Below, piece by piece: positions 12,001 through 40,804 of a DNA stretch of 64,000 nt. The notes under the pieces were generated by a model that saw only the letters and a list, made by a program, of their open reading frames with translations, did no database searches and had not been told where the DNA came from. The stretch covers positions 310,001 to 374,000 of the forward strand of contig JBDOQK010000030.1 in NCBI GenBank assembly GCA_040437565.1, in the 5' to 3' direction. This DNA is from Albugo candida (lineage: Eukaryota). The stretch's first letter is position 1; each line of letters starts with the position of its first letter. The position numbers were made by a program, and so were the translations under genes.

Positions 12001-15000
12001 TGTACTTAGTGACAGGGAAATGACACTTATTACCCAATCAGAGTGTGTGTCGTTTGTCAGACCGACAGTCAATGCACTTGACGACTTAAAGGTTCTATTA
12101 CGGCGACGCACTTAACCATTGCTTCATTCTCTTGCAAGAGTGACAATTAGGGGACCGATGGATCCGAATGATCTTGTTTGATATTGCTTGTCCAGCCTCT
12201 CGACAACAGGTAGAGCGGAATAGCATCAAATGCGCCACGGAGCGATGTATTTAGTCATTCATCGGCGCATTGTGAGATTTTTTTGTTCCACACTGTAGAG
12301 AAGTCATTTTTAATCACGCTCTAGCTAGCAGCTTCTCGAGGAATCGTGGTATGTTCATCCTAATTATGGTACTGACCTGAGGCACACGCTTTCGAATGTA
12401 CTGTATGAAGGAGAATCCGCCTTGTACTTGTCTCTCGATGTTGACTTACAGAGAGGATGTTGCGATGCGTGGTCTGTGGTGTTTTTCTCTTCGTCTGGAT
12501 TTGAACAAATTGTTGCTGCTTCCAGTATGCATTTCACACCATACTTCGAAGATGGGATGGCTCTCACGATTCGGTAAGGTAGATATTGAAATATCGCAAC
12601 ATTATCTCTGTACTGATTTACGTATAATTGACTGATAATGACATTATCCATAAGCAAAGTGGAATACCTTGTTTGATAATCATAGTCATTATCAGCACGT
12701 ACGGGTTGACTCGCAAAATCGTAAAGTTTCATTGTGAACGCAGTGATCTTCGCTTTTCCTCTGCTGCTACGTGCAAGATTGATGACATTGCTTGCCATCC
12801 AACTAGGTGAAAAGGTATGGTTTCAGTATACAATCAAACAGAGTATCTTATAATCGATTGTGTTGTGCAGAATAAACAGCTATGTAAGGGACAAAACTCG
12901 GAGTTGCGCTTGCGAGCTGCTCCAGCACCTTTGCAAACGGAACACTTTCGTCTTGATCATAACACTATAATCGAAAGTACTGAACGTGCGCAGTAAACGT
13001 GGTATTGATCATGGAACTTGCTATAATTGCCGGAGTTGCTTATGCTGATAGAAAAGACAAGAATTCCAACCGGTACAGATGAAGTGCAGCGTCACTGCCT
13101 GCAAGGCAGGTCATAATATAGATACAATTTACTGACAGCCTTTTGATTCCGTCCGTATCGTTGGCGGAATATCACACGAAAGGTTTGTTCAACGTGGAAA
13201 GAATATACAAGTTGATCCCGAGCTGGGAGTAGCGCCAGCGATTTTCTGCTGTATTCGCAATCGATAAAAATATGGTGATCTGAATTCAATGCTTCATACG
13301 AAGACAAAGTGCACAATTAAATGCCAGGCTGCTATCTTCTACATACCACAACCGAGATTTGACTGGTAGCATCCTGAAGGCCCACACGAAACTGCCGCTC
13401 TTCAAAAATCGGTGTTCACGTTTGAGAAGTTCCCTTGATGCAATTATATAATTTCGAATAAGTTATGTGTCTGTTAGTTCATCGCGCTCCCGGATGACCA
13501 ATGTATCAGCATGAAATGAATCTTGGTTGCCTCGGGAGGCTCACGGACGATACGGAGAGTTGAGAGCGTGGAAATGGAAGACATGCTCTCGTTTCTTGAT
13601 TTGTCAACCCGCGTAGAACGGTATTCACTCGAGCTCGGTTGGATCCAAGTGACGAGACCAATCGTCGGAAGGATAAGCTTCAATATTTGAGTGACTTCAT
13701 CGTACGTCGACTTCAGCGACTATTCTTTAGCCATATCTAAAATAGTGAGCTCTTGTCGTTGTAGCATAGATCGACTAAGGGTATCTTCGTAGGCTATGTG
13801 TCGTCATCATCGGATGTCGAAATCTGGCAAAATGATTACAGAATGTGCGAAGTGGTTCGTTAACCATGCCGAAATTGTATCAAATAATCTGCGTGCTCGG
13901 ATTACGACTAGCAGCTTCATGGTGCAGTAATTATTCGCAATAGAGCTACTTCGGTTGATACATGAAGTATTGACGGCGTTGCATACCATTCATATCTGGA
14001 ATGGTAACGCTACAATCCATCGCATGCCATTCTTGTTTCTATGCCGAAGATGGCTTTTCCCATTGNNNNNNNNNNNNNNNNNNNNNNNNNNNNNNNNNNN
14101 NNNNNNNNNNNNNNNNNNNNNNNNNNNNNNNNNNNNNNNNNNNNNNNNNNNNNNNNNNNNNNNNNAAGAGCGGCTAATTTGTGCGCATTGGCGCATTTTT
14201 GACGATGCGGTGATTGGTCGCACTAATGATGCATTCCGTTTAATAATACGACTTGGAGGTAGAGACTTCTCTGTCCCTACCTTAGTTTATTTCGAACATT
14301 TTTGACGACGTGAATGTTGCCTTCTATAGAATGCACTGAAAGCAATCGGATACACTTTTATATGGCAAACAGATGACATTACCATGCCACAAATCCTCTA
14401 CAAAAATTATATTTATTGCATTATATGATACATGTCACTGGGATAACACTCATGATGCAGCACAAATAGACGGATTAAGAATGGTTTGGCGATGTCATAC
14501 ACTTTAAACGTACGAAGAGAGAGATGTCTTCTAAGCAAAAATGGGTGCTAGAGACGAAATCAAGCGCATGTTTCTTCTCTTGGTGAAGAGATTACTTTCG
14601 AAACGAAAATCTTAAGCAATACCCGGTTTACACCTTCTTGCCATTGCGATCAAATAATATCTTAGTTGACGGCGTTCGAGGACACAAAATGCGAAATGCA
14701 GTCATTGAAACCATTGGATTATGACCCTACTTATGCCCTTATATGAGAATGGGGGAAAAAATCACATTTGGTCTTAGATCGGGGACCCAATCAATTGCCA
14801 AACCGGTCCAGAATTCGGTAGACAATTGGATGTGTACTTTCCACCAGCAAAAGTGTGATCACCAGATGCAATCAAATTCCGTTTCGGTGCGGCTAAAGGC
14901 TTAACACATTCTGACATTTTGAATATAAATCCTCGTTCGCACGATTCCGATTCCAATGTGAGCCGCATGTAAGTTTTCCCAAAACATCTGACGCTTACTG

Positions 15001-15199
15001 TATGAACTTCTTCCTTTGTATGAAGCAGTGATGTTTGTGATTGGTACGGGATCGTCGATGAACACAGCGCTGCAAAGCGCCATGGATCCTAGCAAAGAAC
15101 ATAAAGACACAGGCGCATAAATTGATCAGCCAACAAAGCTTTGAAGAGCTACAAATATGCTCCCGACAATAATGCAGCAAAAAGCAAACGGACATACTC

Positions 15200-17006
15200 A
15201 CAAACTTCTCAGATTTCCGAGATTATTATTTTAGATGTTTATAGCCCAAATGATGAGATTGAAATCGTTGCATTCGGCACAAAAGGTTTGTACAATCCAA
15301 TCTTTTATGCAAAGTTTGAGGAACATGGAGAAGGTCAGCATCGGTACACGTATACTCTGTTTTATCCGCAAATTCCGACGGTGGAAATGCATAATTTACT
15401 GGAGAGAGTGTCAGAACTTTGTGGGGATGATATGTTGATCATAGTGAATTTAGATTAGCTCCATCGAAGCGCTCTTGCAAAACAATTCAACGCAAGATCA
15501 TTCTTTATACAGACGCTCATAGCAAATTCGAGAGTGCTTCCGACCCGAAACCGGTTGTAGAGATGATAAATTCACTTGACGTAGCGCTAGAAATCATGTA
15601 GGGAACTTTTCTACGCCTGAAATACATAAGTGAGTCTTATTGTCGCGGATTCGACTTTACGAATTTACTAGTAAAAAAAGACATGGAAGAGATTGTCGAG
15701 CGCAAGATCAAGCAAGAACCTCGTCTGGAATTCGAAGGTTTTTTTTAAGAAGTGATGTAATTTACCATTTTACTGTGACACGTAGGAAGGAAATGAGAAA
15801 ATGCTTCAATCACTCGCTTAAGTTGTTGGAGGTCATGTCGTCTCTATACAAGAAAAGGTAGAGTTTTCGAGACATGGTATGAAGAAGAGCGTCATATAGG
15901 TCACGTAGTTCCGAAAAGATGTGGATATTGGCTCCTTCAAATTAGTACATTGCTTCATTAAAGTAAATATTAGTACGTTTCCTAGCCTTTTGAAGGAGTC
16001 GGCGCTGTCGCAGGATGAACACGAAGGAGTTCGACAAGATCGGCAACGACATGGACCCAGATACATCTGATGAAGAAAATTCACCAGATCAAAGGGTAAA
16101 AGCGTAAACATACGGTAATGAAAGCGTTCCTTTTCCTTCTGCCGACTTGGAGGATTTCAAATTGAACACAGAAAAAAGTCTGGAACTGCTGGAATTTGCG
16201 AATAAAAAAAGATTTAGCAGTTCAAGTATATGGTCAACACGAATGTCTTTGTACCAGACCCAACGAAGAAAAACTCTGCTAAATGCTTTGGAACGTTTTT
16301 GGGCGCAATGATAATGAAAGATCTCGTGGTAGTTGCTTGCTTTGTGCCGAGAAAAAATGCCGCCCCGAAGGTCATCGCGCTGATACCACAAACCCCAACA
16401 AACGAGTTTCCAAGTCACGTTTTCTGGTCTCAACAATTGCCCTTTGAAGAAGATTTGAGAGATTTCGAGTTTCCATCTATTTTACGTGGGAATTTGAGAA
16501 GTATTCCTTCANNNNNNNNNNNNNNNNNNNNNNNNNNNNNNNNNNNNNNNNNNNNNNNNNNNNNNNNNNNNNNNNNNNNNNNNNNNNNNNNNNNNNNNNN
16601 NNNNNNNNNNNAGTAGCGGATTCCAATGAGAAGTTGAGGTGAGAGGAGTTCAATCTATCGAAAGTTTGGATCCAATCGCAGCTCATTAAGCGTAAGTAAA
16701 TACATACAAATCGAAATAGTCACAAAACAATAAGAACGGGAAAATTATGAGGTCAATTAGTGAAATAGAGCCCCAGGTTGAGCATTCTACAAGTCACGGT
16801 CAATCGTCTCGATGCAGCGAATACAATACATGAGAAAGCGCAATATTGATCAGAAGTGTTCACTATATTACAATGCCATTTTGAGACAGGAGAAAAGATC
16901 AAAATGCTGGGTGGAATCCATGCGAGCTACAAGAATTAATCTTTTATCCACTGACGACTTTTTTATCTCACTAACAACACAGATTGCAGATATGCTTCCA
17001 TCGTAG
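15200..17006 (+). pseudogene. KU80: Disabled Ku80 (XRCC5) gene: vWA, beta-barrel and C-terminal domain remnants
   Basis: vWA: PNDEIEIVAFGTKGLYNP and RKIILYTDAHS. Middle: NEKMLQSLA*VVGG...KKSVI*VT*FRKDVDIG. Barrel: DQRVKA*TYGNESVPF..ADLEDFKLNTEKSLELL and VACFVPRKNAAPKVIALIP...QLPFEEDLRDFEFPS. C-terminal: WVESMRATRINLLSTDD. Stops at 15819, 15897, 15906 and 16105; frameshifts near 16050-16080 and 16203-16230. Confidence 0.88.
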
Positions 17007-17721
17007 ACGACATGGAGCCTGTCGAAAGGTGCTCGATGTGTTTTTCATGTTTGCTTCGTGGAACGGATACGTGGAGTACAAAATGATGTTGTAGCAGCAG
17101 CATCATGTCGTCCTTGAAATATCTTATTTTCACATCATCATTGAAGGCACCGTGACGTTTCATGTCTAAACTTCATCACATTCGTTATTCTGTGTAAATT
17201 GACAACAAGTATTAAACGAGTATGACAAGATGGATTTGACGTTCATAACTGCAGAGTTTTTCTCCTGATACTCTGTAATGATCAGGTATCTCGACCGACT
17301 GGCTCTAATTTGAGAAACCTTTTTTGTCGAAAGTAAGACATGTCCTCTTAATACTTGAATCAAGACAACATACTCGAGGATCATCTACTTTACCTCCTAT
17401 CTTGTACGGATGGGAAAAATCAATTTTAAAAGCAAAGATATTCGAAGAAAGGCACACGTCGTACGATTATCCTATCATATTCGTGGATGCAAAATACCAA
17501 GCAGCATACATCGGAGCTGGTTGGAAAACTCATAATAATCTTCTCTTATCCCGCTAGCCTACGTTCAATGATATCGTAAGTAGAACACTTGTGACACTCG
17601 ATAAGTTTTTATGGGGCGGGCNNNNNNNNNNNNNNNNNNNNNNNNNNNNNNNNNNNNNNNNNNNNNNNNNNNNNNNNNNNNNNNNNNNNNNNNNNNNNNN
17701 NNNNNNNNNNNNNNNNNNNNN

Positions 17722-18679
17722 TATCCTAAAAAATGTGATGGGAGCTCAGGTCGTGAAATTTTTGACACCTACGAATGCAATAATACTGATGGCTGCTTCA
17801 GATACTTTACAATTGGGGGCATTACGAAAGCGTGGATGTACACACGTGAAACTAGAAGAAGATGACTGCAAGATGTATCGTAGCAACCAAATAATGCACA
17901 CAGAAATGTACAAGATCCCACTAAGGGCGCAACTTAGCGATGAAAAGGCTGGCCTCTGCCACATATCGCATCATCATACTTCGAGCCAACAGAATTGTGC
18001 TGCAAGGCTGCGGACATTCTTTTCTTCGACTCCCCACCATAAAATGATTCACATACTTACAGCGAGATCGCTCTTAGTCGAAACTTCAGGGTCTAATTCG
18101 CAGAAAATAAGGGCGTTATATCCAAACTTCGAAAAGATAGTTAGTAAGCCTACGTGTCTTAGAATTCAGGAAGTCCCTCGTGAATTCTGCTCTGAGCACC
18201 TAGCCTTCTTATTGCCGGCTCCCATACATTCTCCCGACCAAGTCTTCATCCACGAATTTACTAAAAACCGCATTCCAGTAGGTTTATGGCCTCCTAAAAA
18301 TCACATCAACTATCGCAATGCGGATGGTGTAGCATCTCAAAGGCGCTATTCGCATCTTTTATCAAATATTGGCACAGAGCTCTGGCCTGCTGTGGATACT
18401 ATCGCGTTTGTGGAGTATGAATGTGAAAATTCAAAGCAGATATACTGTGTAAGCTGCCTTCTACAGCACACAGAAGTATACTTAGCTTACGGTCACGAAT
18501 CAAGCACGCGAGGTTATGTTTGGATGCGACCGGCACCCTCTGTAATTCTCAAGTCGTGTGTTGGAGATAAGATTTGCTCAAGCCTTACATATAATGCGGA
18601 CCGAGCTCAGATTGAACGGCCAGGTGATCTTCGGCAATGGACAGTAGAATCACTAGGTATATCGGAGAGTAAGAAATAA
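17722..18679 (+). CDS. Cys-containing lineage-specific protein, CCG/CHXC-effector-like (5' end lost in gap)
   Basis: About 320 open codons after the gap, starting ..ILKNVMGAQVVKFL and containing YCVSCLLQ. It is a clear paralogue of 22708-23797(-). The effector-family call rests on motif resemblance only. Confidence 0.6.
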
Positions 18680-21600
18680 GCTTGGTGTAATCGGAGGATA
18701 ACATAGCAGCGCATTCTCCTAATGAATACTATGTCCGATATGTTGGAAGCGTATTTCTAGTTACTATATATTAGAGAATGCTGTTGAACATGGATCCTTT
18801 CGAGCCTACCATACCTCTCTCTGTAGATATTTGGTCCGGTTTGAAATAGTGGACTATATTTTGGTGTCGCACGATACTTTATGATTCCTGTTATAACGTA
18901 AGCGGCAACATATCCCCTATTGTCCAAATGATAGTAACTTATTATGAGGAAAGAGCCAATTATGAGCCGTTGTTCTCATACATTTGCAAGCCAATCGCAA
19001 CACATCTCGTATCTGGTGATTTGATGACACCACTCGATCAAGATATCGATGCTACAAGTGCTACAATTCGACACGAATCGTGTCAAGCAGTGATATTGTA
19101 AAGGGCTTGGAAGCTGGGTAAGGTAGACGTCTGGATGATTTAACATTCGACTAATATCGTTGCACGGGTCCTCTACTACGCAATAATCGTCTGGATTAAA
19201 TCTTTCGGTCGGAAGACCTATCCAAAAGACTGTAGATATTTTCGACCACGACATGCAGGAGATCGTCTGACACAAAAACGTTTTTTGCCAATCCGGCATG
19301 ATTCCCGAAACAAGGCTTGTAAATTGTACATCATGGGGTTATTCGATTGTACTCCGCATGTATTACACAAACGGAATGCAAATTTGGTGGTCGGAAAATA
19401 AGGATAACTTCAAAGCCCGAAAGCAAAAGAACGAAAATAAAGAACCATATTCAGACGATGCTGTAAAAATTTTACAGGATAGGACGCATGGTGTTCAGTC
19501 TACTCAGCGTGTTATGGAAGCTGTAGCAGCTCAATAGCGTACTCAGGACACCAATAAGTCACGACATTTTTTAATCGAATTTCTTGAACTCAGATTATCG
19601 GTCGGAAAATAATTTCAGATACAACCAAGATGACTTCTTCGATCATCACGTAAGGCATCGATAGGATGATAAGGTGCCGTCATGCATGATACATGCGTGT
19701 TGAAGAAGGCATTCACACGATCAGCCAGCATTGACATTTCCCAAACGTCCATCCGTCCTGAGAGAACACGATCTTGAAAACTATTTCCGATATGTATCAT
19801 GTGGTTCGTCTACCATTTCAAGCGTTATCGAATTATGAGTAGCAGCTTCGTATTATGATTCTTGGTCGCAGTGGAGCCACATCGGCTGTTCCTGTAGTGT
19901 TGACGGCGTTGGAGAACACCAAGATTTAAAAGTTCAATGCTCGAATCAATCTGATAAAAAATATAAATGCATGATTCCACACCAAGATGTGCTCTTCCAT
20001 TCAACCATTTCGCCATGTCGATGTGGTGTCCAAAGAGAGCTAAATAAATTGTAATAATTTTCTCGAAGCAGTTCTCTACTGCGCAGAAATAATTTTCAGC
20101 GTATCGGATGCGAACGTTCAGAGAAATTGAATGCGCTGTAGATTCGTTTGACGCACTTCAAAAGCGGTTTTTAGTTTTTCATCCTGTCCCCAAAAATAGA
20201 AAAAATATTTTTCAATCAAGTGAACATCTTTCGGGTCTTTTGATGTTTCCGACCTAGCACAAATCGATTCAGTCTCGACTGCCTCAGTCGAAAGGTCTCT
20301 GCTGGTATGTCAACGCGCATAATGTAACGCCAATGACGTGACAAATCATCTTCTTTGCAACCAATAGTCGACCGCGTACAATTCATGCACGTCGAAACAG
20401 TAAACGAAAACCATCATCAAAACGCTATTCGAGAGCTTTTATAGCAATCGAAGGAGGAGGTATTTTTAATCAACAGAATTCGCAAATACCTGGTCGAATC
20501 CCCCCAACCCAATGTGGTCGATTGGGAATACGAATAAACGGCATGATTTGATTCAACGAGATTAAAGATGATATGCCATGTTGAAATTCGCAATAAATTT
20601 ATTGCAGAAAACTTGGAAGTGTCGAGTTGCGTCAAATCATCATACATTTTTTCTAAAAGCAATGTCAACTCGTCTACAAAACCAAGTCCAGTTGCGACAG
20701 TGTTGCCCCTGGTCTAAATGGCATGTTCTTCATGTTGACGAAGTAAATTCTCAAAGGGTTTGACCTGCATAAAATACGTAATTCTAAGAGTGCGTCGCCT
20801 TTTTGACTTCATGTAGTGATGTAATGGATGGTGTGATATTGCAATTAGAAATGAATTGTGCTTTCGTATCGGTTTAGGAAAGACGAAGTCAGTCGATACA
20901 CTTTTGTCAGGCGCCCGTTCTTACGAAAACATGCGATACGTATACGTCCAATTCACTCGGTCATAGGGGTTTTTCAAATTCAAGAAAGAGGCATACAATT
21001 CTTCCCATGATCAGTGAACAAGTCTTGTATGTCGGAGATATGTAGTTTGTGATGATGCAGCGTCCATCCTTGCGTAAATGGGTATTCATTATGATGATCA
21101 ATTTTGGAAAAACCGCTGTGATTGATGTGCCAATGCTTTGTAAAGCACTTTCACGTTTCCACAAAGCACTGCGCGCAAGCTGTAGTTGTCAGGATCACGT
21201 CATGATCCTTTCTTGTAAAAGAAGGTGATTGCTCAGTGACGTTTGGCACCTTTAACTAGCTGACATTCGAGCACTATCTTTATCACCTGATACTCTTCAT
21301 TTACTTTCGGCTGAAGCTTAGATAACGCAGCTGATACTCCATCCACAGCAGGAGAGAAAATACTTCGCATATCCTTCTCCGCTTCCTCTCTCTCTGTCGT
21401 AATCAAGCAAGTTGAGAGACGGTCTTCCCTTTAGAATCAACGGAAACTTGGATTGGTTCCACAATCTTTTCAGATTTCTTCAACATTGACCAACTAATCC
21501 GGTCTCTGCGCTATTGAGAGTACCCCTGAAACCACCCAGTGATCCCTGAATTCATCAACGCTATCAGTGGGGCTCGATTTCAGGGTTCTATATAGGCTGG

Positions 21601-23660
21601 TAATATAATTGACCGGCACACGACGACAGAAACTATCCGGAGAAGTGAAGCAGACTTTAGATCGTTTTCCATATGCTTCATGTGATGATCGAAGCATTCA
21701 TTATGGTTGTTTTGGCATTTTTATTGACTGGAAGTCGAGCTGTTTTTTTTTTGTGATTTGTTTCGAATAAATGCCGTGATTGATTGGTGTCCGGAGTCCG
21801 AAATTGAGCTGCTGGGGCTTCCTAAGACACGCTTATTAGAGCAAACACCACGCGGGTATCTTGTACAAACGTTTCTAATTCACTAGAAGATGGTTTTCAT
21901 GATCGTCTTCTAGCTTTCCAACACTTATCCGGATTCGAAGTTTCCTACTTGTTCGAGCACCAAATCTGCTTTTCGTTTGAATAATCCGACAAGTTGAGTA
22001 CAATAAAATAAAAACGATGTACAGTTTAATATCCCCGTCTTGGATTCAAGTCGGATTCGCAGAATAACATTTTGTGCCAGACGATCCCCTGCATGCCGTG
22101 GTCGAAAATATCTGTATTCTTTTATAAGTGCTCCGATGTAATTCAGGCGTTCGTTGCGTGGTGGAAGTCCTGTGTAATCTTTCAACCTCAAGTAGTCGAA
22201 TGTTGAATCCTCGAGACGTTTACCTTATCCAACTTTCAATCCCGTTACAAACACGCTAATCACACGATTCACGTCGAACTAGGATACATGAGCATCGATA
22301 GCTTGATAAATTGGTATCTTGATATCACCAAATACGAGACGTGCTGCGGTCGGCTCAAAATGTATCAGAGCAACGTCTCAAAAAAAGCACTCTTTACTCG
22401 TGATGAGTTGATATCCATTGGAAAAGTCGGGCGGGATATGTTGCCTCTTACGACAACATCGAAACGCTGAGTTGTGCAACGCTATGCTATAACAGGAATC
22501 ATATAGTATCTTGGGACATCAAAATATGGTCCGCTGTTTCAAATTAGACCAAATATCTAGAAGGAGAGGTATGTTTAGCTCGAAAGTAAGCATATTCGAC
22601 AGCCCTCCGCCTACTATGTAATTACTCGAAAAAGTCTTCTTGAAAGGGTGCACGGAGTATTCATTAATAAAAATGCACTTCTATATCATCCTTCAATAAG
22701 ACCAAGATTATTTATCACTCTCCAATAAACCTACTGTTTCTACTGTCCATTGACGAAGCTCATCTGGCCGTTCAAGTGGAGCTCGGTCCGCAGTATAGGT
22801 AAGACTTGAGCAGATCTTATCTCCAACACAAGAATTGAGAATTACCGAGGGTGCCGATCGCATCCAAACATATCCTCTCGTGGTTGATTTGTCATTGTAA
22901 GACAAGTACACTTCATTGTGTTGTAGAAAGCAACTTGTACAATATAGCTAGTTTGACGCTTTGCATTCATACTCCACGAACGCGATACTATCACCCGCAA
23001 GCCAGACTTCTGTGCCAGACTTTGATAGTAAACGCAAATAGATCTTTTGAGATGGTACATCATCCCCATTGTGTGTTGATATGAATATTAGGAGGCCATA
23101 CACCTACTGGGATGCGACTAGCAGTAAACTTGTGGATGGCACTTTGGTCGGGAGTATGTTTGGGATCCGGCAAAATGAAGGCTTGGTGCTCAGAGCAGAA
23201 TGCATGAGGGACCTCCTGAATTTTAAAACATGTCCATTTACTGCATTTTATTGGGTTATTTTGATTTAACGCCTTAAATTCTTTCGCATCAGGCCGTGAA
23301 GTGAGTACAACTAAAAGCGATGTATCTGTAAGCGTGTAAATTTCTTGTTGTTGGGAAGCTGAAGAAAAGAATATATTCATGTACAGAGCACAAGCATGTC
23401 GTTTCGACGGAGCATGATACGATTGGTGGCGGAAGCCAGCCTTTTCATCGATAGAGTGCGGCTTTAGTGGGATCTCGTACATTTCTGCGGGCATCATTTG
23501 GTTACCATGATACATCTTGCAGTCATCTTTTTCTAGCAGTACGGATTTACATTCTCGGTCCTTGTGTAATAAATTTTCTGAAGTACCCACCAATAGAATC
23601 GCATGCCTAAACGATAAAAATATCGTGACACGAGCTCCCACTACCTTTTTCAGGATACGA
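17722..23660. repeat. Diverged inverted duplication: arms ~17722-19300 and ~22040-23660, spacer ~2.7 kb
   Basis: Similarity continues ~600 nt beyond the stop codons. For example tatgattcctgttata and agatattttcgaccacg.catgcagg.gatcgtctg.cacaaaa occur on both arms in opposite orientation. Confidence 0.85.
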
Positions 23661-23797
23661 CCGATGCATTCCAAATTCTTGTTGATAACCGAGGTAATTT
23701 TGAGGCAGACGAGCTTGTCGGATTCGAATATCCCAAGGGTATTGGTGTATGTGAACGCTTGCAGTATAGCAGACCGTGGGGAAGAAGCTCTTGCCAT
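22708..23797 (-). pseudogene. Frameshifted paralogue of 17722-18679, CCG-effector-like
   Basis: ORF pieces 23060-23797 and 22708-22911 align to the + copy (DDCKMY, IQEVP..FCSEH, RIPVG.WPP, STTRGYVWMR.APSVIL.SCVGDKICSSLTY.ADRA) but are split by frameshifts around 22910-23070. The motif reads ECIGRILKKVVG, with CGT where Cys (TGT) is expected. Confidence 0.7.
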
Positions 23798-26700
23798 CCT
23801 TTTGTGGGCAAGAAACTTCAGGATCTATGTGATATCCTTCAAGCTCTTGTGTTTCTCATATGAAAATGCTGATTTATGGCTTCGGTTTGTCTCATCGTGC
23901 ATCTCATTTGCTTTTTCTGAATCTTGTTGCTGCATAGCTAAAATATTGACCGCTTTATTACATTCGCTTGATCCCAGCTATTCATTTTCGAGCAGAATAT
24001 TCTCTCACAGCTGTTGATGATTTTTTCTATTCATGAATGCTACGAAAGACGCAGAACGCAGCAGATGAAATGGGCGACCTTTTAATAAGAAATATGTTTG
24101 AATAGCTAATGAGTTGCTGTTCATAGCCAATTATTCTCGACAAACGGCGTCTTCACGAAAAGAATGGATGATGATGCAACGCATCGACGGGTGATCATTT
24201 TGTAGACCTTCAGTTCCCAAGCTGTTCTCATTTGTGATTTCTCGAGCTTGGTGCAACACTGGAGAAACTTTCGATTGTTGGTCAGTTACAACATCAAACA
24301 TCTTCATGTGCCTGGCTTTTAGATGACTTTCGAAAGATAGTGGGATTTCTGATACTTGTTTACGTATGCTTGATGAATTATCATAATTCTGTTGTCGAAA
24401 ATAAATGTGCTTCTTACCCTCTTTCATGTCGGATTTTGTCATTGATACTGTGAGAAGGTGAATGCTTTTCTCGATCAAAATGGGTCTCCTATAGTTGTTA
24501 TATGCTAATAGCCGCTTCGCGTTGGATCAGTCAAGATAGATAATTTGGTTGTGTGAGCTGATATGCGACATGTTCCCCTAGAATTGCAATATGATAAAAA
24601 CGCTTGTACCAGATCTGTATAACGTCCATAAACCCAGTAGAGTCTGTAGGTCTGGCTGGCTTGAATCAAATCAATTCTTTTGTTTCCGATGAACATGACG
24701 AGGCACCGGTGACACGGTAGGAAATCCCCCGCGCTACACTCGTCACATTAAAAATGCCCCTGCCACATCTTGAACATAGCTGGACTGTAGCTCCCCAAAC
24801 ACTGATACCAGCGCACCAAGAAGCAAGACATACAACGCGGTGCTCCACATTCTATTCTCTTGCCTTCGTGGAATTAATTGGGTACTTTTGACACTTGGCA
24901 TCGAATCAGCCAATCGTCATGCCTTGTTTATGCCTCGCTACATGTCATTATATAAACTAATCCGTACACGTTTTTTTAAGGCTCAGTTATGTCTCATAAC
25001 TCAAGTGCTCAATCCGAAAAGACACCCAGATCGACGCAGCAGTCATCTATTTCCGCACTGCCTTTGCACAATGCTAGCGTTTTTTTCCATATACTAGTGC
25101 AAGCAAATCCGCATTCCAAGTGGCTCGTACATGTGATATGTGATAGATATAATTCTTCTTTCCAAGGTCTTCACACTAGAGGATCGACTATTTGTGCGTA
25201 TTGACACTTTGTTGACGATGCCATCAAGTGCTCGCACCGATACTGCAATCCGTTTATGGATTCGACTGGAGGTCCAGACTTCTTTGATCCTACCTCCGCT
25301 TTGTTTCGATGAATTCTGACGCTCTGAATGAGGCCTTGATAGATCGCTCTATCGCGATCTAATACACTTGTATATGGCAAAGACATAACAATACCATGAC
25401 GGTAGTATACAAAACAAATCTTAATATCATAATATCACACATTCACTGTGATAACGCTCCTTGTGCACCACGAATAAGCCAGAGAAAGACATAATTTAGG
25501 AATGCTGAACGTATAATTGCCATTACACCGCTACTGCAATTTCATTTTGCAAGTAGAACACCGCTGTTGTATGGCCGCTAACAAACTTTTTGCGTTGCAT
25601 TTTTGAATGTGATAAAAACAGAAATGATTTCTGCTGATTGGGATCTTGAAAGTTGGTTATTTGAAGGCAACTAATGGAATTTAAATAGGAAGTGGTCGAT
25701 AAAAAGATGGCTATTCTCATGTACTCCATTGATATCACCGTGGGTGCTGCGGTGTTGTTTCTCGTCGGTATAAACAAGGAGGCCTTCGCATATATTGAAG
25801 TGACCGGGGATCATTTTCATTGCACCATCTTGAATTAAGGAAAAAGTGTTGCAAAGCATTCCCTAAGGCTGAACGGACAGCTCGTCAATATCACTTTGGG
25901 GAACTTCTCGCCGTACACCTTGAAACCATTAAGACCAGCACTTGATGCCCACCTTTGAGCTTGAATATAAATGGAGTAGCATATTTTGTAGACAATAATC
26001 AACAATGGTGACCGGGATCCAAATCACTACCCCTTTGTGAAATATTGGATCCATCAAACATTTTCTAAGAGGTGGGCAGCGCAAATGAGAAGCAATTTCT
26101 CCAACTTTAGAGCTATCGCTGCTCTTGTCAAACAAAAAACTAGTTCCAGCACAGATCTTTAACATGTAGCTACAGCTTGGTACATTACGTCACAATAGGG
26201 TGGAACGTTCTCATCAACATGCCGATTCCATCGCGTCGGAAACGTACCATCTTCACCGAGTTCTTGAGCAGAAGATCCTCAATAAATCATTAGTGGATGC
26301 GGTGCTTTGCCCACCGCACTCTCATTTGACTTTATACACGCTAGTAGCGCACGGTTCATAACGATCGGATATTGAGTGCCACTTGGATGAAGTTGAGGAT
26401 TCATGCAGAGTGGGACTAGCCTGACCGCATGTGTCATTTGTACGTCATCCCGGACCAGGTAGCCCGGGAGGATTGTGCGGAAAGCATTTTCGGATTTACT
26501 CTCCATCTGCTATCCAACCTCGCCAACTCTCATTGATCGCTCCGCTGTTTGAAAATTCGTTTGGTGTGCTTGTAAAAAATGGTCGTCCTCGTTTGATGCG
26601 GTCCCCGCATTTGGGATCCGTATTTTCACGGCAATAATTTGAAGTGTTGTCCGTGTATCAATTTGGCAACCGCTCTGCCTCCACCGACATTGATCGAGCA

Positions 26701-29700: not shown

Positions 29701-30271
29701 GCTTCGGATAGGACGTCTCATCTCCTGTTCATCAATTAATCATTAGCCTACCACCTTTTTGGCAAAGACTTAACATTTGCAACTCGATGGAGACGTCATC
29801 TGGGACGAAACTCCCTAAGAAACGTGAAGTTTCGTTTCAAAATGTCAGTTCATGGTGAACATCAGCGACAGCATTCTAATTAAAATGACCCGAGCGACGA
29901 GAGCTACTGAGGTCATCGATTTGGCTCTCATATTTACGGCACCCACGTGATACACTAAATATCATGGTGTCCATTATAATACCGCCGCCCCGGTGATTTG
30001 GATTCCACTCACCACTGCAGATTAATGCAGATCAATTTGTTGCCTCGCTCAGTGATGGGAGTGAGGTTGATGCAAACAGTTTGATTATGTCGTTGACTTT
30101 GACCGTACGAAGAGAGCATTATCCCGTACGCACAAAAGGGTTGAGAAACGAAATGGAGCGCATGTTTGTTCCATTTACATGATGATCACACTTTTTGGTT
30201 TTCTTCCCATTCTCACACAAGAGCATACATAGGGCCATAATCCAATGATTTCAACGAATGCATTTCGCATT

Positions 30272-31372
30272 TGTATCCTCAAACGCCGTCAACTCAGATA
30301 TTATTTGATCGTAATAACAAGAAGGTGTACACTGGGCATTGCTTTCAATTTCGTAACTGGTTCGTTCGCGAGCGCTGGAAAAGTATCCAAAGAGCAAGTT
30401 GGTAGAAAGTCTAATTGCTGTGATTGCCGCAGTAATGACATATCCCTTACGTATCGATTCTATGAGCAAACTACTGAACAAATGCCACAAAACCGAGCGA
30501 ACTTCACGTGACACAGCCGTTTCTTTGTGCACAATAACGCAATGAGCAGATGAAAGTTGCCTTTCTCCCCATAGGACATANNNNNNNNNNNNNNNNNNNN
30601 NNNNNNNNNNNNNNNNNNNNNNNNNNNNNNNNNNNNNNNNNNNNNNNNNNNNNNNNNNNNNNNNNNNNNNNNNNNNNNNNGTATCCTCAAACGCCGTCAA
30701 CTCAGATATTATTTGATCGTAATAACAAGAAGGTGTACACTGGGCATTGCTTTCAATTTCGTAACTGGTTCGTTCGCGAGCGCTGGAAAAGTATCCAAAA
30801 GAGTAAGTTGGTAGAAAGTCAACATCAACAAAATGACGGTACTAATTGCTGTGATTGCCGCAGTATAACATATCCCTTACGTATCGATTCTATGAGCAAA
30901 CTGCTGAACAAATGCCACAAAACCGAGCGAACTTCACGTGACACAGCCGTTTCTTTGTGCACAATAACGCAATGAGCAGATGAAAGTTGCCTTTCTCCCC
31001 ATAGGACATATAAAGAAAGCTCCGAGATTGCATTTGATATTACACCAATTGGATCAGACTCAGGCAGCTGTACACTATCGAACTCGCANNNNNNNNNNNN
31101 NNNNNNNNNNNNNNNNNNNNNNNNNNNNNNNNNNNNNNNNNNNNNNNNNNNNNNNNNNNNNNNNNNNNNNNNNNNNNNNNNNNNNNNNCTGAACAAATGC
31201 CACAAAACCGAGCGAACTTCACGTGACACAGCCGTTTCTTTGTGCACAATAACGCAATGAGCAGATGAAAGTTGCCTTTCTCCCCATAGGACATAAAAAG
31301 AAAGCTTCGAGATTGCATTTGATATTACACCAATTGGATCAGACTCAGGCAGCTGTACACTATCGAACTCGC
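30272..31372. repeat. Three overlapping near-identical copies separated by gaps (probable uncollapsed haplotypes)
   Basis: 30272-30580, 30681-31088 and 31189-31372 share sequence. They differ by SNPs and a ~22 nt indel (caacatcaacaaaatgacggta). Confidence 0.85.
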
Positions 31373-38632: not shown

Positions 38633-39415
38633 GAGTAAGGATTGCGTCATGAGTAACAGCGGTAGGGCTACCCACAAACGAGGCGACCGTATATGTAAAC
38701 AAGTTTTAAGACTCTCATGGAACGTTTCTCTTTGAGATGGGCAATTGCTTCATGACTGTTATACTTTATCAAACCGCACTTGAGCTCAAATTCTCGAACG
38801 TGAAGGATAGAAGATGCGCTGTCGACTACACACGAACATATGTACCGTACATATAGATGAACACGTTCGTAGATGCTTCCCCTCATAGAGAGAATATGGC
38901 GACAGGTGCACGCAACATGTACCAATTTGTGGTCGCGGCAAGATGAATTTATTACATACACACCCGTCTTGATTCAAAAATGCGATGGGTTACTTGAAGG
39001 TGATAGTGGACAAAAATTGCACGCTGTCAAACTAAAATTTGATAGATTCTTTGCACTCAACTTCAAGGCTACTAAATGCGCTCGTTTGTGTGTATTGCAT
39101 GGAGCATCATCGATTGCGAGTGAGTCCTTTAACTTTCCTAGCAAAAGAGCCAGTAGTAGGGGTAGGGGTCGCATATTCACACAAATTACAACTTGGGGTA
39201 GGGATGTCTTACAGTACGTGACTTTTTTTACTCAAAAGTTCATTTTTGTCGTCCTTCATTCTCGAAATTGCGTCACAAAGCGTACGTCAAAGGTCAAACT
39301 TTAGCCAATAATAGCACCTACAATACAAACGATCATCCGATCTCATCTCACTAACACTATTGTAGACACAATCACTTTATAATTAGACTCTGAACGGATA
39401 CATTGAATCGCTCCC

Positions 39416-40804
39416 ATGCTTGCGCTATTATATGAAAAATTTCATCGCACTGAAAGGCAAGTCATACATTCACTCTCGCCTTCAACCAAAATAAATTCGT
39501 GCGGTTCCACAATTCAAAGTACATGTCCAAAACAAGGGACAAAACGCACAATTCACGATCGATTACGCGAATTGATGGGCGACGAAATCACCGAAGAAGA
39601 GTTTTGGAACCGGTTTACCTTTGGTAAAATCCTCGGCACAGGCTCAACCTGTAAAGTGTATGAGGCTTTTGATACTGTCACCAATGAGACTGTTGCTGTC
39701 AAAGTGTTTGACAAGGTTGCGATGATCGAAACCCGGTGCTCTATGGCCGCGTCCGAAGACAAAATCGTAAAAGAACGCGCTGTTGATCGTGCACGTCGTC
39801 GACTCCTCAAGATCATTTCGGAACTGGAAATTGTGAAAACGCTGCATCATCCAAATATCATTCAATTTCGTGGCGCTTACGAAACCTCACATCGCATCTG
39901 TATTGTGTATGAAAGGACACAAGGATCGGATCTGTTAGAGTACCTCTTAGCGCATGGGAGGATGCAGGAACCGCAGGCCGCTTACGTCGCGAGACAATTG
40001 CTCTCTGCAGTGCGATATTGCCATGACAGGCGTTTGTATCATCGCGACTTGAAACTCGAAAAGTGAGTACATTTGATGTAATTTTTTATGTAGTATCCAC
40101 TCATTCTGTTGTTATGTAGCGTGTTAATTTCACCCGATTTGAAAGTGAAACTTATCGACTTTGGACTCTCCGAGTACGTTCCTGAGGGAAAACAACTTCA
40201 CTCTGTTTGTGGTACACCTTTGTATTGTAGCCCTGAAATACTGTTCATGAATACATCCAGCGAGTATACCCGTGACGGATTTGAGGGAGGTCCAGCAGAT
40301 GTTTGGAGTGTTGGTATATTTATCTTTGCAGTTTTGACCGGATGTGCTCCTTTTGATGACTCGACATTGATGCGTTTACGTGAAGACGTTTTCAAAAATT
40401 CCGTGTGTTTTCCGCCTTATTTATCATACGAAGTGAAAAGCATGTTAAAGGCCATTCTGGTGCAGGATCCCGCTTTACGCCCGACAGTACAAGAATTGAT
40501 GCAACACCGCTGGATCAAGGCGAAAGGACTTCACGAAACGCAACTGGTTGTCTCGCACTCTCCTCACACATATTGCAAGTTTTCTAGAAGTAAGACCGTA
40601 TCATTATCACCACGAAGCAAGGCCTCTGTACTCCATCGATTGCTTTTCCGGCCGAGTAGTGATGGAACAGAGAAAACAGCTCGATCCAGTCTCAGCTATG
40701 ATGAAATTAGTCATGAGCTATCAAAATGGAACTTGGGAAATGTCGATTCACTCGATAGGTCGGATACTCGACGCATCATGCACAATGCGTTCTCATTCAC
40801 CTGA
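39416..40804 (+). CDS. CAMK/CAMKL-group Ser/Thr protein kinase
   Basis: GTGSTCKV, VAVK, HRDLKLE|N, DFG, CGTPLYCSPE and DVWSVG. Intron ~40063-40119. Confidence 0.92.

What the first reader, a model, noticed from the sequence alone, without database searches (positions are those of the whole stretch)
15200..17006. Near full-length fossil of Ku80: possible loss of classical NHEJ caught in progress
Seen: vWA, beta-barrel and C-terminal Ku80 segments lie in the correct order. They carry at least four in-frame stops (15819, 15897, 15906, 16105) and at least two frameshifts, while flanking housekeeping genes are clean, so sequencing error is unlikely. Known: Ku70/Ku80 with Lig4 is the core of classical NHEJ, and several parasite lineages (e.g. 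microsporidia, Plasmodium) have lost it. Inferred: if this is the only Ku80 locus, the organism repairs breaks by HR/MMEJ. The relic would then date the loss and bear on genome compaction, effector-region plasticity and CRISPR editing outcomes. Gene predictors would see only 100-130 aa fragments.
Basis: partly seen in the sequence, partly recalled or inferred. Interest (0 to 1): 0.85.

Follow-up and report, generated by a model that had tools for sequence, protein, structure and literature searches.

The report
Dead Ku80 copy, better twin elsewhere
This stretch is a badly decayed, non-working copy of the DNA-repair gene Ku80 in an oomycete, but the same genomes hold at least one better-preserved Ku80 copy, so it does not show that the repair pathway is lost.

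Summary
Window 15022-17006 (+) is a near full-length remnant of Ku80/XRCC5 with its vWA, beta-barrel and C-terminal parts in order. The barrel matches Pfam Ku at E=1.1e-14. The region is 54% identical over 243 aa to an intact 531-aa relative, P0001. On the homology path I count 12-13 premature stops (TAA, TAG and TGA) and 4-6 frameshifts. Window-identical contigs occur in independent public runs, so the lesions are not assembly errors.

In those runs the segment from about 15730 to 17250 exists in two or three diverged versions. In run X1 the middle has twice the depth of the flanks. One version ("alt", about 10% different) has none of the window's indels between 15820 and 16511. It carries the ancestral residue at 6 of 6 informative barrel sites.

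The relic is therefore most likely a dead duplicate. Every version seen has a broken C-terminal domain, and alt's stops could not be read. Whether a working Ku80 remains, or NHEJ is lost, stays open. No genome was held to search for Ku70 or Lig4.

The parts
15022..15177 (+). Start of the Ku80 remnant (first residues of the vWA domain), frame 1. It has stops at 15118 (TAA) and 15142 (TGA) and no in-frame ATG.
   Evidence: The frameshift-aware alignment to P0021 starts at its residue 6 here. The piece is not significant alone in the custom profile (score -3.1, E 0.26). It is colinear with the rest. Stops.
15186..15685 (+). vWA-domain remnant in two frames: frame 3 to about 15487, then frame 2. 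It has stops at 15456 (TAG) and 15599 (TAG) and a frameshift at about 15488.
   Evidence: The custom oomycete Ku80 profile matches positions 33-140 (frame 3) and 131-191 (frame 2). Shuffle z=17-23. Pfam's general models found nothing on these pieces. The stretch is identical apart from 1-2 letters, with no gaps, in contigs of X1, X17 and X18, and in part in X20.
15686..15779 (+). Linker between the vWA and barrel parts, with a change of frame. It may hold a former intron or a further frameshift.
   Evidence: Profile positions 191 to 198 lie on either side of it. I found no GT-AG pair in a consistent phase on reading the sequence. This is inference.
15780..16511 (+). Ku core beta-barrel remnant. 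It has stops at 15819, 15897, 15906 and 16105 and frameshifts at 16047 (+1) and 16224 (-1). The last 95 codons (16227-16511) are open and the best preserved part.
   Evidence: Pfam PF02735 at E=1.1e-14. Custom profile 193 bits and 57.7 bits. Identity to P0001 is 61%, 62% and 73% in the three sub-segments. 16339-16511 is one contig at double depth (127 against about 60) in X1.
16512..16611 (.). Assembly gap of 100 N. It hides roughly 430 nt, which is profile positions 438-581 (the Ku arm and the start of the C-terminal domain).
   Evidence: N run. Missing profile positions. Loose ends of contigs at 16511, 16612 and 16616 run on for 24 to 255 letters and read as Ku80-like peptide (table 7).
16612..17006 (+). 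Remnant of the Ku80-specific C-terminal domain. It has stops at 16627, 16687, 16693 and 16717. All three frames are closed within 16627-16642. A 10-nt deletion at 16804-16808 shifts the frame. The end at TAG 17004 is close to the relative's own end.
   Evidence: tblastn E=2e-10 and 7e-07. Profile positions 582-630 (frame 1) and 636-698 (frame 3). Identity to P0001 is 42-43%. Stops. Sequence.
14177..14753 (.). Dispersed repeat just upstream of the relic, with copies at 25190-25476 and 30079-30344 / 30681-30752.
   Evidence: blastn of 12800-23000 against the window gave 72-87% identity.
17722..23657 (.). Pair of inverted repeats, 17722-19572 against 21766-23657 (about 1.9 kb, 72% identical), just downstream of the relic. 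Each arm holds a long ORF without a Pfam match.
   Evidence: The Atlas gave no hit of 0.9 or more.

Best explanation
Window 15022-17006 is a non-functional, heavily decayed copy (pseudogene) of Ku80/XRCC5 in an oomycete. It lies at the edge of a repeat-rich stretch where none of the long ORFs I scanned has a Pfam match. It is not the genome's only Ku80-derived sequence. At least one further copy ("alt") shares the stretch from about 15450/15730 to about 17250. Alt is identical to the relic over 16339-16511, most simply through gene conversion, and 7-14% different elsewhere. Alt keeps the ancestral reading frame and residues through the beta-barrel.

The window's copy is therefore the dead member of a duplicated Ku80 pair or small family. 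It has no function of its own.

Shown: homology, the lesions, their presence in independent runs, the existence of alt, and alt's frame-preserving indel pattern.

Inferred: that alt lies at another locus rather than being an allele, that gene conversion explains the identical tract, and that alt is or recently was under selection. The C-terminal domain is broken in every version seen. If alt works, it works as a Ku80 core without that domain.
For: Homology and lesions.

Reality of the lesions: window-identical contigs (0 other letters) cover 15827-16008, 15983-16252, 16339-16511 and 16651-16835 in X1, and 15708-15849, 15827-16008 and 16651-16835 in X17. 14900-15731 has 1-2 other letters and 0 gaps. 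17 of 24 listed runs hold at least half of the sampled words, and the 20 holders come from 14 studies.

Second copy:
- In X1, paired contigs over the same spans have equal depth: 62.1 against 68.2, 59.5 against 63.8, and 58.5 against 60.6.
- The shared tract has 127.1, and both flanks have 63-74. That pattern fits two loci.
- Alt's gap letters in 15820-16511 (5+2 in X1 contigs 3 and 4, 7 in X18 contig 19) are fully accounted for by five events.
- Those events are +C at 15866 with -1 at 15871, +ACC at 15943, -1 at 16046 and +A at 16203.
- Together they remove both of the window's frameshifts there and restore the codon missing relative to P0001.
- X18 also has a 14%-diverged version of 15450-15595, so alt reaches into the vWA part.

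Polarity (on the differences that one search listed): in 16011-16338 there are 9 non-synonymous differences. In 6 alt matches P0001, in 0 the window does, and in 3 neither does. A further 3 differences are synonymous.

The relative P0001 shows the lineage had an open Ku80 reading frame of 531 aa.
Against: - Alt's substitutions at the window's stop positions 15819, 15897, 15906 and 16105 were not shown (81 differences were cut, table 3). Alt may carry stops of its own or the same ones.
- Alt's C-terminal domain is broken. Contig 8 has 0 gaps against the window, so it shares the 10-nt frameshifting deletion at 16804.
- +T at 16867 breaks the frame that is colinear with the profile. It is in all of the depth in X17, X18 and X20, and in 49.6 of 102.2 in X1.
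- C>T at 16887 would be TAG in the window's frame.
- A further version is closed in all three frames within 30 letters before 16659 in X17 and X18 (table 7).
- No protein closer than P0001 was found. Among proteins of 292-930 aa, 64 hits were at most 49% identical apart from P0001 itself. Among proteins over 173 aa there were 2 hits. Among 1.84 billion representatives the best was P0001 at 72%.
- The two-loci reading rests on contig depths in one run. An allelic pair with very diverged flanks is not excluded.
- The polarity count uses only the differences that the tool chose to list.
Confidence: 0.6

Rival explanations
1. Loss of the gene: every Ku80-derived copy in this organism is dead. The alt copy is only a younger or less decayed pseudogene, patched by gene conversion. 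The lineage has lost Ku80, and with it classical NHEJ, fairly recently.
For: - All versions laid have an unreadable C-terminal domain. The evidence is the shared 10-nt deletion, +T at 16867, and stretches closed in all three frames.
- A third version skips or replaces 16043-16204, 16267-16618 and 16703-17206 and has -1 at 16269 (tables 4 and 5).
- No Ku80 protein of this organism appears in three protein searches.
- The nearest relative's Ku80 sits on a branch of 1.05 against a median of 0.18, which hints at relaxed constraint in the lineage.
Against: - Alt keeps the frame over 692 nt where the window copy acquired two frameshifts and a codon loss.
- Alt holds the ancestral residue at 6 of 6 informative barrel sites. 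That asymmetry is what selection on alt would give.
- A Ku80 without its C-terminal domain can still bind Ku70 and DNA ends (recalled knowledge, not tested here).
- The protein databases may simply lack this organism's fragmented locus. Even the window's own pieces were not found.
Confidence: 0.3
2. Heterozygous null: the window version and alt are two very diverged alleles of one locus (a dead allele and a conserved allele) in a clonal diploid.
For: The two versions have 1:1 depth in X1, and shared tracts have double depth. Both versions recur in runs of different years (X1 and X17).
Against: Both flanks (14244-15731 and 17168-17248) have the same depth as one version, not double. The other haplotype's flanks would then have to be over 15% different too. 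A 10-14% divergence between alleles is unusual (inference). The third version does not fit two alleles.
Confidence: 0.08
3. Not a pseudogene at all: the breaks are assembly or sequencing errors, introns, or stop codons that this organism reads as amino acids.
For: An intron between the vWA and barrel parts is plausible in oomycete Ku80.
Against: TGA also interrupts the path, at 15142 and 16627. Neighbouring genes give standard-code ORFs of 313 to 1024 aa. The frame changes inside conserved blocks that are uninterrupted ORF in P0001. The lesions recur letter for letter in contigs of other runs.
Confidence: 0.02

Closest known systems
Ku80 / XRCC5 of oomycetes (P0001, unnamed relative; named examples include Phytophthora ramorum 'X-ray repair cross-complementing protein 5', about 770 aa)
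   Same: The domain order is the same (vWA, beta-barrel, arm, Ku80 C-terminal domain). The remnant is colinear over profile positions 6-698 of 737. The barrel is 61-73% identical to P0001.
   Different: It has 12-13 premature stops, 4-6 frameshifts and no in-frame start. The C-terminal domain is only 42-43% identical. It cannot encode the protein.
Duplicated (non-processed) pseudogenes kept partly alike by gene conversion with a paralog
   Same: A second copy has equal depth in the same runs. A 173-nt identical tract lies inside 10% divergence. The decay is asymmetric: the window copy is derived and alt is ancestral.
   Different: The partner copy has not been shown to be intact, and its C-terminal domain is broken too. 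The locus of the partner is unknown.
Loss of classical NHEJ (Ku70, Ku80, Lig4) in parasitic eukaryotes, as reviewed in PMC6635534 (I saw the abstract in the search listing and a term search of the main text)
   Same: The organism appears to be a plant-associated oomycete with contig sets of about 34-38 Mb, and one Ku80 gene has decayed.
   Different: Pathway loss is not shown here. That paper's main text holds none of the terms oomycete, Albugo, Phytophthora or stramenopile. Its supplements could not be opened and may list such taxa.

Membership tests
Ku80 (XRCC5) gene family | Ku70/Ku80 core beta-barrel domain (Pfam PF02735) | tested here: met
   16218-16511 scored E=1.1e-14 and 55.3 bits against a cut-off of 25. 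16108-16311 scored 19.3 bits, below the cut-off.
Ku80 (XRCC5) gene family | N-terminal vWA-like domain upstream of the barrel | tested here: met
   Pfam found nothing on the pieces. A profile of 48 oomycete Ku80s matches positions 33-191. Frameshift-aware alignments to three full-length Ku80s give z=17-23. It survives only as a remnant.
Ku80 (XRCC5) gene family | Ku80-specific C-terminal domain (PF08785), which tells Ku80 from Ku70 | tested here: met
   Pfam gave no hit on 16782-17006. tblastn to P0001, which carries PF08785, gave E=2e-10 and 7e-07. Profile positions 582-698 match. The nearest named hits are KU80/XRCC5. It survives only as a remnant.
Ku80 (XRCC5) gene family | Uninterrupted reading frame that can give the protein | tested here: not met
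   12-13 premature stops and 4-6 frameshifts, repeated in contigs of other runs.
Ku80 (XRCC5) gene family | Transcribed, and paired with a Ku70 in the same genome | not testable with these tools
   No genome is held. No listed holder run is on record as RNA.
Unitary pseudogene (sole remaining copy, meaning gene loss) | No other copy of the gene in the genome | tested here: not met
   Two to three diverged versions of about 15730-17250 occur in the same runs. The middle has twice the depth of the flanks in X1.
Duplicated pseudogene with a functional parent | An intact parent copy elsewhere | tested here: inconclusive
   Alt is frame-continuous over 15820-16511 and ancestral at 6 of 6 informative sites. 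Its stops were not visible and its C-terminal domain is broken.

The most novel reading that the evidence does not exclude
All Ku80 copies of this plant-parasitic oomycete lineage are dead. The C-terminal domain died first, before the duplications, because its lesions are shared. The cores are now following, so classical NHEJ is being or has just been lost. A small family of relics remains, homogenised by gene conversion. The sister species still has an open but fast-evolving Ku80. This would be a datable loss of NHEJ in an oomycete.
Probability: 0.3. Interest if true: 0.7.

Novelty: new member of a known kind. Interest (0 to 1): 0.4.

Why it matters
If all copies prove dead, this would be an NHEJ loss in an oomycete. 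My four literature searches found no report of one. It would bear on genome compaction and on what genome editing would produce in this group.

As the evidence stands, the finding is mainly a caution. A well-marked pseudogene in a draft assembly does not show pathway loss when near-identical paralogs collapse or break the assembly, as the N gap inside the relic suggests. The pattern of a conserved core with a C-terminal domain dead in all copies also raises a testable idea: this lineage may use a Ku80 without its DNA-PKcs-binding part.

Tried and rejected
- Whole-genome search for Ku70, Ku80 and Lig4: no genome is held.
- RNA evidence: no RNA holder is listed. X18 and X20 are only guessed to be RNA, and I treated them as DNA.
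- Fishing for the second copy's protein:
  - P0001 residues 33-275 against proteins under 292 aa gave 0 hits among 101 candidates.
  - The 98-aa piece against 1.84 billion representatives gave 55 hits, none closer than P0001 at 72%.
  - Neither search found even the window's own fragments, so these blanks say little.
- Metagenome contigs: P0001 patterns gave 171 pattern matches with none confirmed. A 29-nt exact pattern gave 0.
- Earlier notes of this scan: nothing for this genome or these sequences.
- Literature:
  - Albugo + Ku80 gave 1 paper, unrelated.
  - Albugo + non-homologous end joining gave 4 papers, none on the subject by title or abstract.
  - Oomycete + Ku70 + Ku80 gave 40 papers, 15 listed.
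  - Term searches in PMC9779921, PMC8021618, PMC6635534 and PMC11936186 found no statement on Ku80 loss in oomycetes. Supplements are closed.
- Ciliate-type code: considered because the four reported stops are TAA or TAG. Rejected because TGA stops lie on the path, the frame shifts, and neighbours have standard-code ORFs.
- Introns at 15599-15646 and 15738-15785: I found no GT-AG pair in phase (my reading). They could explain two breaks at most.
- Atlas search of the neighbouring 318-aa ORF: best score 0.84, so no lead.
- One search was an empty script.
- In one search one segment was read in the wrong frame. This is corrected in the report.

Full report
WHAT THE WINDOW IS. The window is a eukaryotic draft with about 42-43% G+C and 14 runs of exactly 100 N. 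One of those runs (16512-16611) lies inside the finding. Neighbouring genes give long ORFs under the standard code. Examples are an S28 peptidase, a 1024-aa RhoGEF-PH-FYVE protein, a WD40 protein, a TPR/DnaJ protein, DJ-1, a kinase, FtsJ and a MIZ-finger protein. Of the long ORFs between about 10.1 and 34 kb, the 9 that I scanned have no Pfam match. The relic lies between repeats: 14177-14753 has copies near 25.2 and 30.1-30.7 kb, and 17722-19572 is an inverted copy of 21766-23657 at 72% identity. No whole genome is held for the window.

THE OBSERVATION. Ten stop-to-stop pieces of 14992-17006 were scanned against Pfam.
- Two matched the Ku beta-barrel. 16218-16511 scored E=1.1e-14 and 55.3 bits. 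16108-16311 scored E=0.0011 and 19.3 bits, below the cut-off. The other eight matched no Ku family.
- The 98-aa piece found two longer proteins. P0001 (531 aa, 73% identical, Ku plus the Ku80 C-terminal domain) comes from an unnamed source. P0002 is 47% identical.
- tblastn of P0001 on the window gave one locus only: 238 bits, E=2e-70, 131/243 identical with stops inside the alignment. Two C-terminal HSPs scored E=2e-10 and 7e-07.

My frameshift-aware alignment and a profile of 48 oomycete Ku80 proteins run on the three forward frames agree on one path:
- frame 1, 15022-15177 (not significant alone)
- frame 3, 15186-15509 (profile positions 33-140)
- frame 2, 15479-15685 (positions 131-191)
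- frame 3, 15780-16487 (positions 198-437, 193 bits), interrupted by frame 1 at 16051-16230 (positions 292-351, 57.7 bits)
- the N gap, where positions 438-581 are missing
- frame 1, 16639-16803 (positions 582-630)
- frame 3, 16809-16982 (positions 636-698)

The N-terminal part is real. Three full-length Ku80s aligned with z=17-23, and 0 of 60 shuffles each reached the real score.

LESIONS. On this path there are premature stops at 15118 TAA, 15142 TGA, 15456 TAG, 15599 TAG, 15783 TAG (in the linker), 15819 TAA, 15897 TAG, 15906 TAG, 16105 TAA, 16627 TGA, 16687 TAA, 16693 TAA and 16717 TAG. In that call I read 16225-16509 in the wrong frame, so its seven printed stops are my error. In the right frame that stretch is open. 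That makes 12-13 stops in about 590 codons, against about 40 expected for random sequence of this composition.

Frame changes lie at about 15180, about 15488, 16047, 16224 and 16804. The last is a 10-nt deletion: five profile positions are replaced by five bases. One more change at 15685-15780 could be a former intron. There is no in-frame ATG before 15022.

Identity to P0001 is 61%, 62% and 73% across the barrel and 42-43% in the C-terminal domain.

NOT AN ARTEFACT. The stretch 15000-16511 is held by 20 of 24 listed public runs. Seventeen hold at least half of its sampled words, and the holders come from 14 studies. I laid the contigs of four runs, X1, X17, X18 and X20, on 14900-17300.
- The N-terminal part (14900-15731) appears with 1-2 other letters and no gaps in X1, X17 and X18 (the last to 15657), and in part in X20.
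- None of the listed differences touches a stop.
- Window-identical contigs cover 15827-16008, 15983-16252, 16339-16511 and 16651-16835 in X1. In X17 they cover 15708-15849, 15827-16008 and 16651-16835.

X1 may be the window's source, though it differs from the window at 15001 and at 17178-17215. X17 is from another study and year. Error, introns and a variant code are therefore rejected. TGA stops also lie on the path, and the frame changes inside blocks that are uninterrupted in P0001.

THE N GAP is an assembly gap. Contigs run past 16511 for 24 to 236 letters, reading E-K-Q-Q-Q-I-A-D where P0001 has K-E-Q-Q-Q-I-A-N. They also run for 25 to 255 letters before 16612 and 16616, reading K-I-K-K-E-N-P where P0001 has K-K-E-Y-P (table 7; translated by hand).

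MORE THAN ONE COPY. In X1 each span from 15827 to 16835 is covered by two contigs of equal depth. One is identical to the window. The other ("alt") has 18-25 other letters per 185-270 nt. The depth pairs are 62.1 against 68.2, 59.5 against 63.8, and 58.5 against 60.6. The tract 16339-16511 is a single contig at 127.1. The flanks (14900-15709 and 17168-17248) are at 63-74. This fits two loci, with a recently homogenised tract between them. At 10% divergence, 173 identical bases by chance would have a probability of about 1e-8 (my arithmetic).

X18 shows only alt over 15820-16511. X18 also has a 14%-diverged version of 15450-15595, so alt extends into the vWA part. Further upstream it would fall below the 85% threshold I set.

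A third, more rearranged version is visible. It appears as joints that skip 16043-16204/16229, 16267-16618 and 16703-17206. It also shows -1 at 16269 and loose ends into unrelated sequence at 16223 (tables 4, 5 and 7).

HOW GOOD IS ALT?
For alt:
- Its gap letters (5 and 2 in X1 contigs 3 and 4, and 7 in X18 contig 19) are fully accounted for by five events: +C at 15866 with -1 at 15871, +ACC at 15943, -1 at 16046 and +A at 16203.
- These remove both window frameshifts in this span and restore the codon that the window lacks relative to P0001.
- Alt is therefore frame-continuous over 15820-16511.
- Of the differences that one search listed in 16011-16338, 3 are synonymous and 9 are not. In 6 of the 9 alt has P0001's residue, in 0 the window does, and in 3 neither does.
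- Alt also lacks the stop at 16687, where it has CAA.

Against alt:
- 81 differences were not shown, so its state at 15819, 15897, 15906 and 16105 is unknown.
- In the C-terminal domain it shares the 10-nt deletion, because contig 8 has 0 gaps.
- It has +T at 16867, inside a block that the profile reads colinearly in the window. That change is in all of the depth in X17, X18 and X20 and in half of it in X1.
- It has C>T at 16887.
- Derived changes in the C-terminal domain are split 3 to 3 between the copies.
- The window is closed in all three frames at 16627-16642. From the contig layout I infer that alt shares 16616-16680. This was not seen directly.
- Another version is closed in all three frames in the 30 letters before 16659 in X17 and X18.

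So the core of alt looks constrained, and the C-terminal domain looks dead in every copy.

WHO IS IT. Ku80 relatives of P0001 are all oomycete at the top of the list. Pythium, Phytophthora, Peronospora, Bremia and Globisporangium are 44-49% identical. Saprolegnia and Achlya are 41%, and Aphanomyces and Thraustotheca 37-40%. Plant KU80s follow. In a tree of 17 rows P0001 is sister to the Pythium-to-Peronospora group (support 99/99) on a branch of 1.05 against a median of 0.18. The tool flags such a placement as unsure. Together with contig sets of 34-38 Mb and plant-metagenome holders, this suggests a white-rust-like (Albuginales) lineage. That name is my inference and was not tested.

No protein of the window's own species closer than P0001 appeared in three searches. 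Even the window's own fragments were absent from the short-protein search, so this is weak evidence.

VERDICT. The locus is a genuine, old Ku80 pseudogene (confidence about 0.95). It is most likely the dead member of a duplicated pair or small family whose better copy keeps the Ku core (0.6). The alternative that all copies are dead and classical NHEJ is being lost keeps about 0.3. Four literature searches and term searches in four papers found no statement on Ku80 or NHEJ loss in oomycetes. Supplements could not be opened. The kind of thing is known (a pseudogene of a known gene), so I rate the interest as moderate.

Noticed in passing
P0001 (relative): The only close intact relative sits on a branch about 5 times the median (1.05 against 0.18). 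It ends without the acidic tail (...DDMFA-D/E-FE) that closes the six other oomycete Ku80s I printed. In animals that tail is recalled to bind DNA-PKcs, so the lineage may have lost that contact before the C-terminal domain decayed here.
   Followed up: partly
window 17722-19572 and 21766-23657: An inverted pair of about 1.9-kb repeats, 72% identical. Each arm has a long ORF (17558-18679, 373 aa including the N gap; 23060-23824, 254 aa) with no Pfam match and no Atlas hit of 0.9 or more. It may be a lineage-specific mobile element or gene family.
   Followed up: partly
window about 10100-34000: Among the long ORFs of this stretch, none of the 9 that I scanned against Pfam has a match. The stretch holds dispersed repeats (14177-14753 against 25190-25476 and 30079-30752) and 9 of the window's 14 N gaps. 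It looks like a repeat-rich island between ordinary genes.
   Followed up: partly
window 17178-17215: In X1 and X17 the only version replaces these 36 bases with 4 letters, and contigs leave the window's sequence at 17256. The window's isolate or assembly differs here from both runs.
   Followed up: no
window 16043-17206 (table 5): A third Ku80-derived version has skipped or replaced blocks (16043-16204/16229, 16267-16618, 16703-17206). Depth reaches 413 at 16265 in X1, so a short piece around 16253-16276 may be present in more copies.
   Followed up: no
window 39407-40804: A protein kinase domain is split over two adjacent ORFs (39407-40066 and 40094-40804, profile positions 2-127 and 129-263). 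This is most simply a short intron, or else a break.
   Followed up: no
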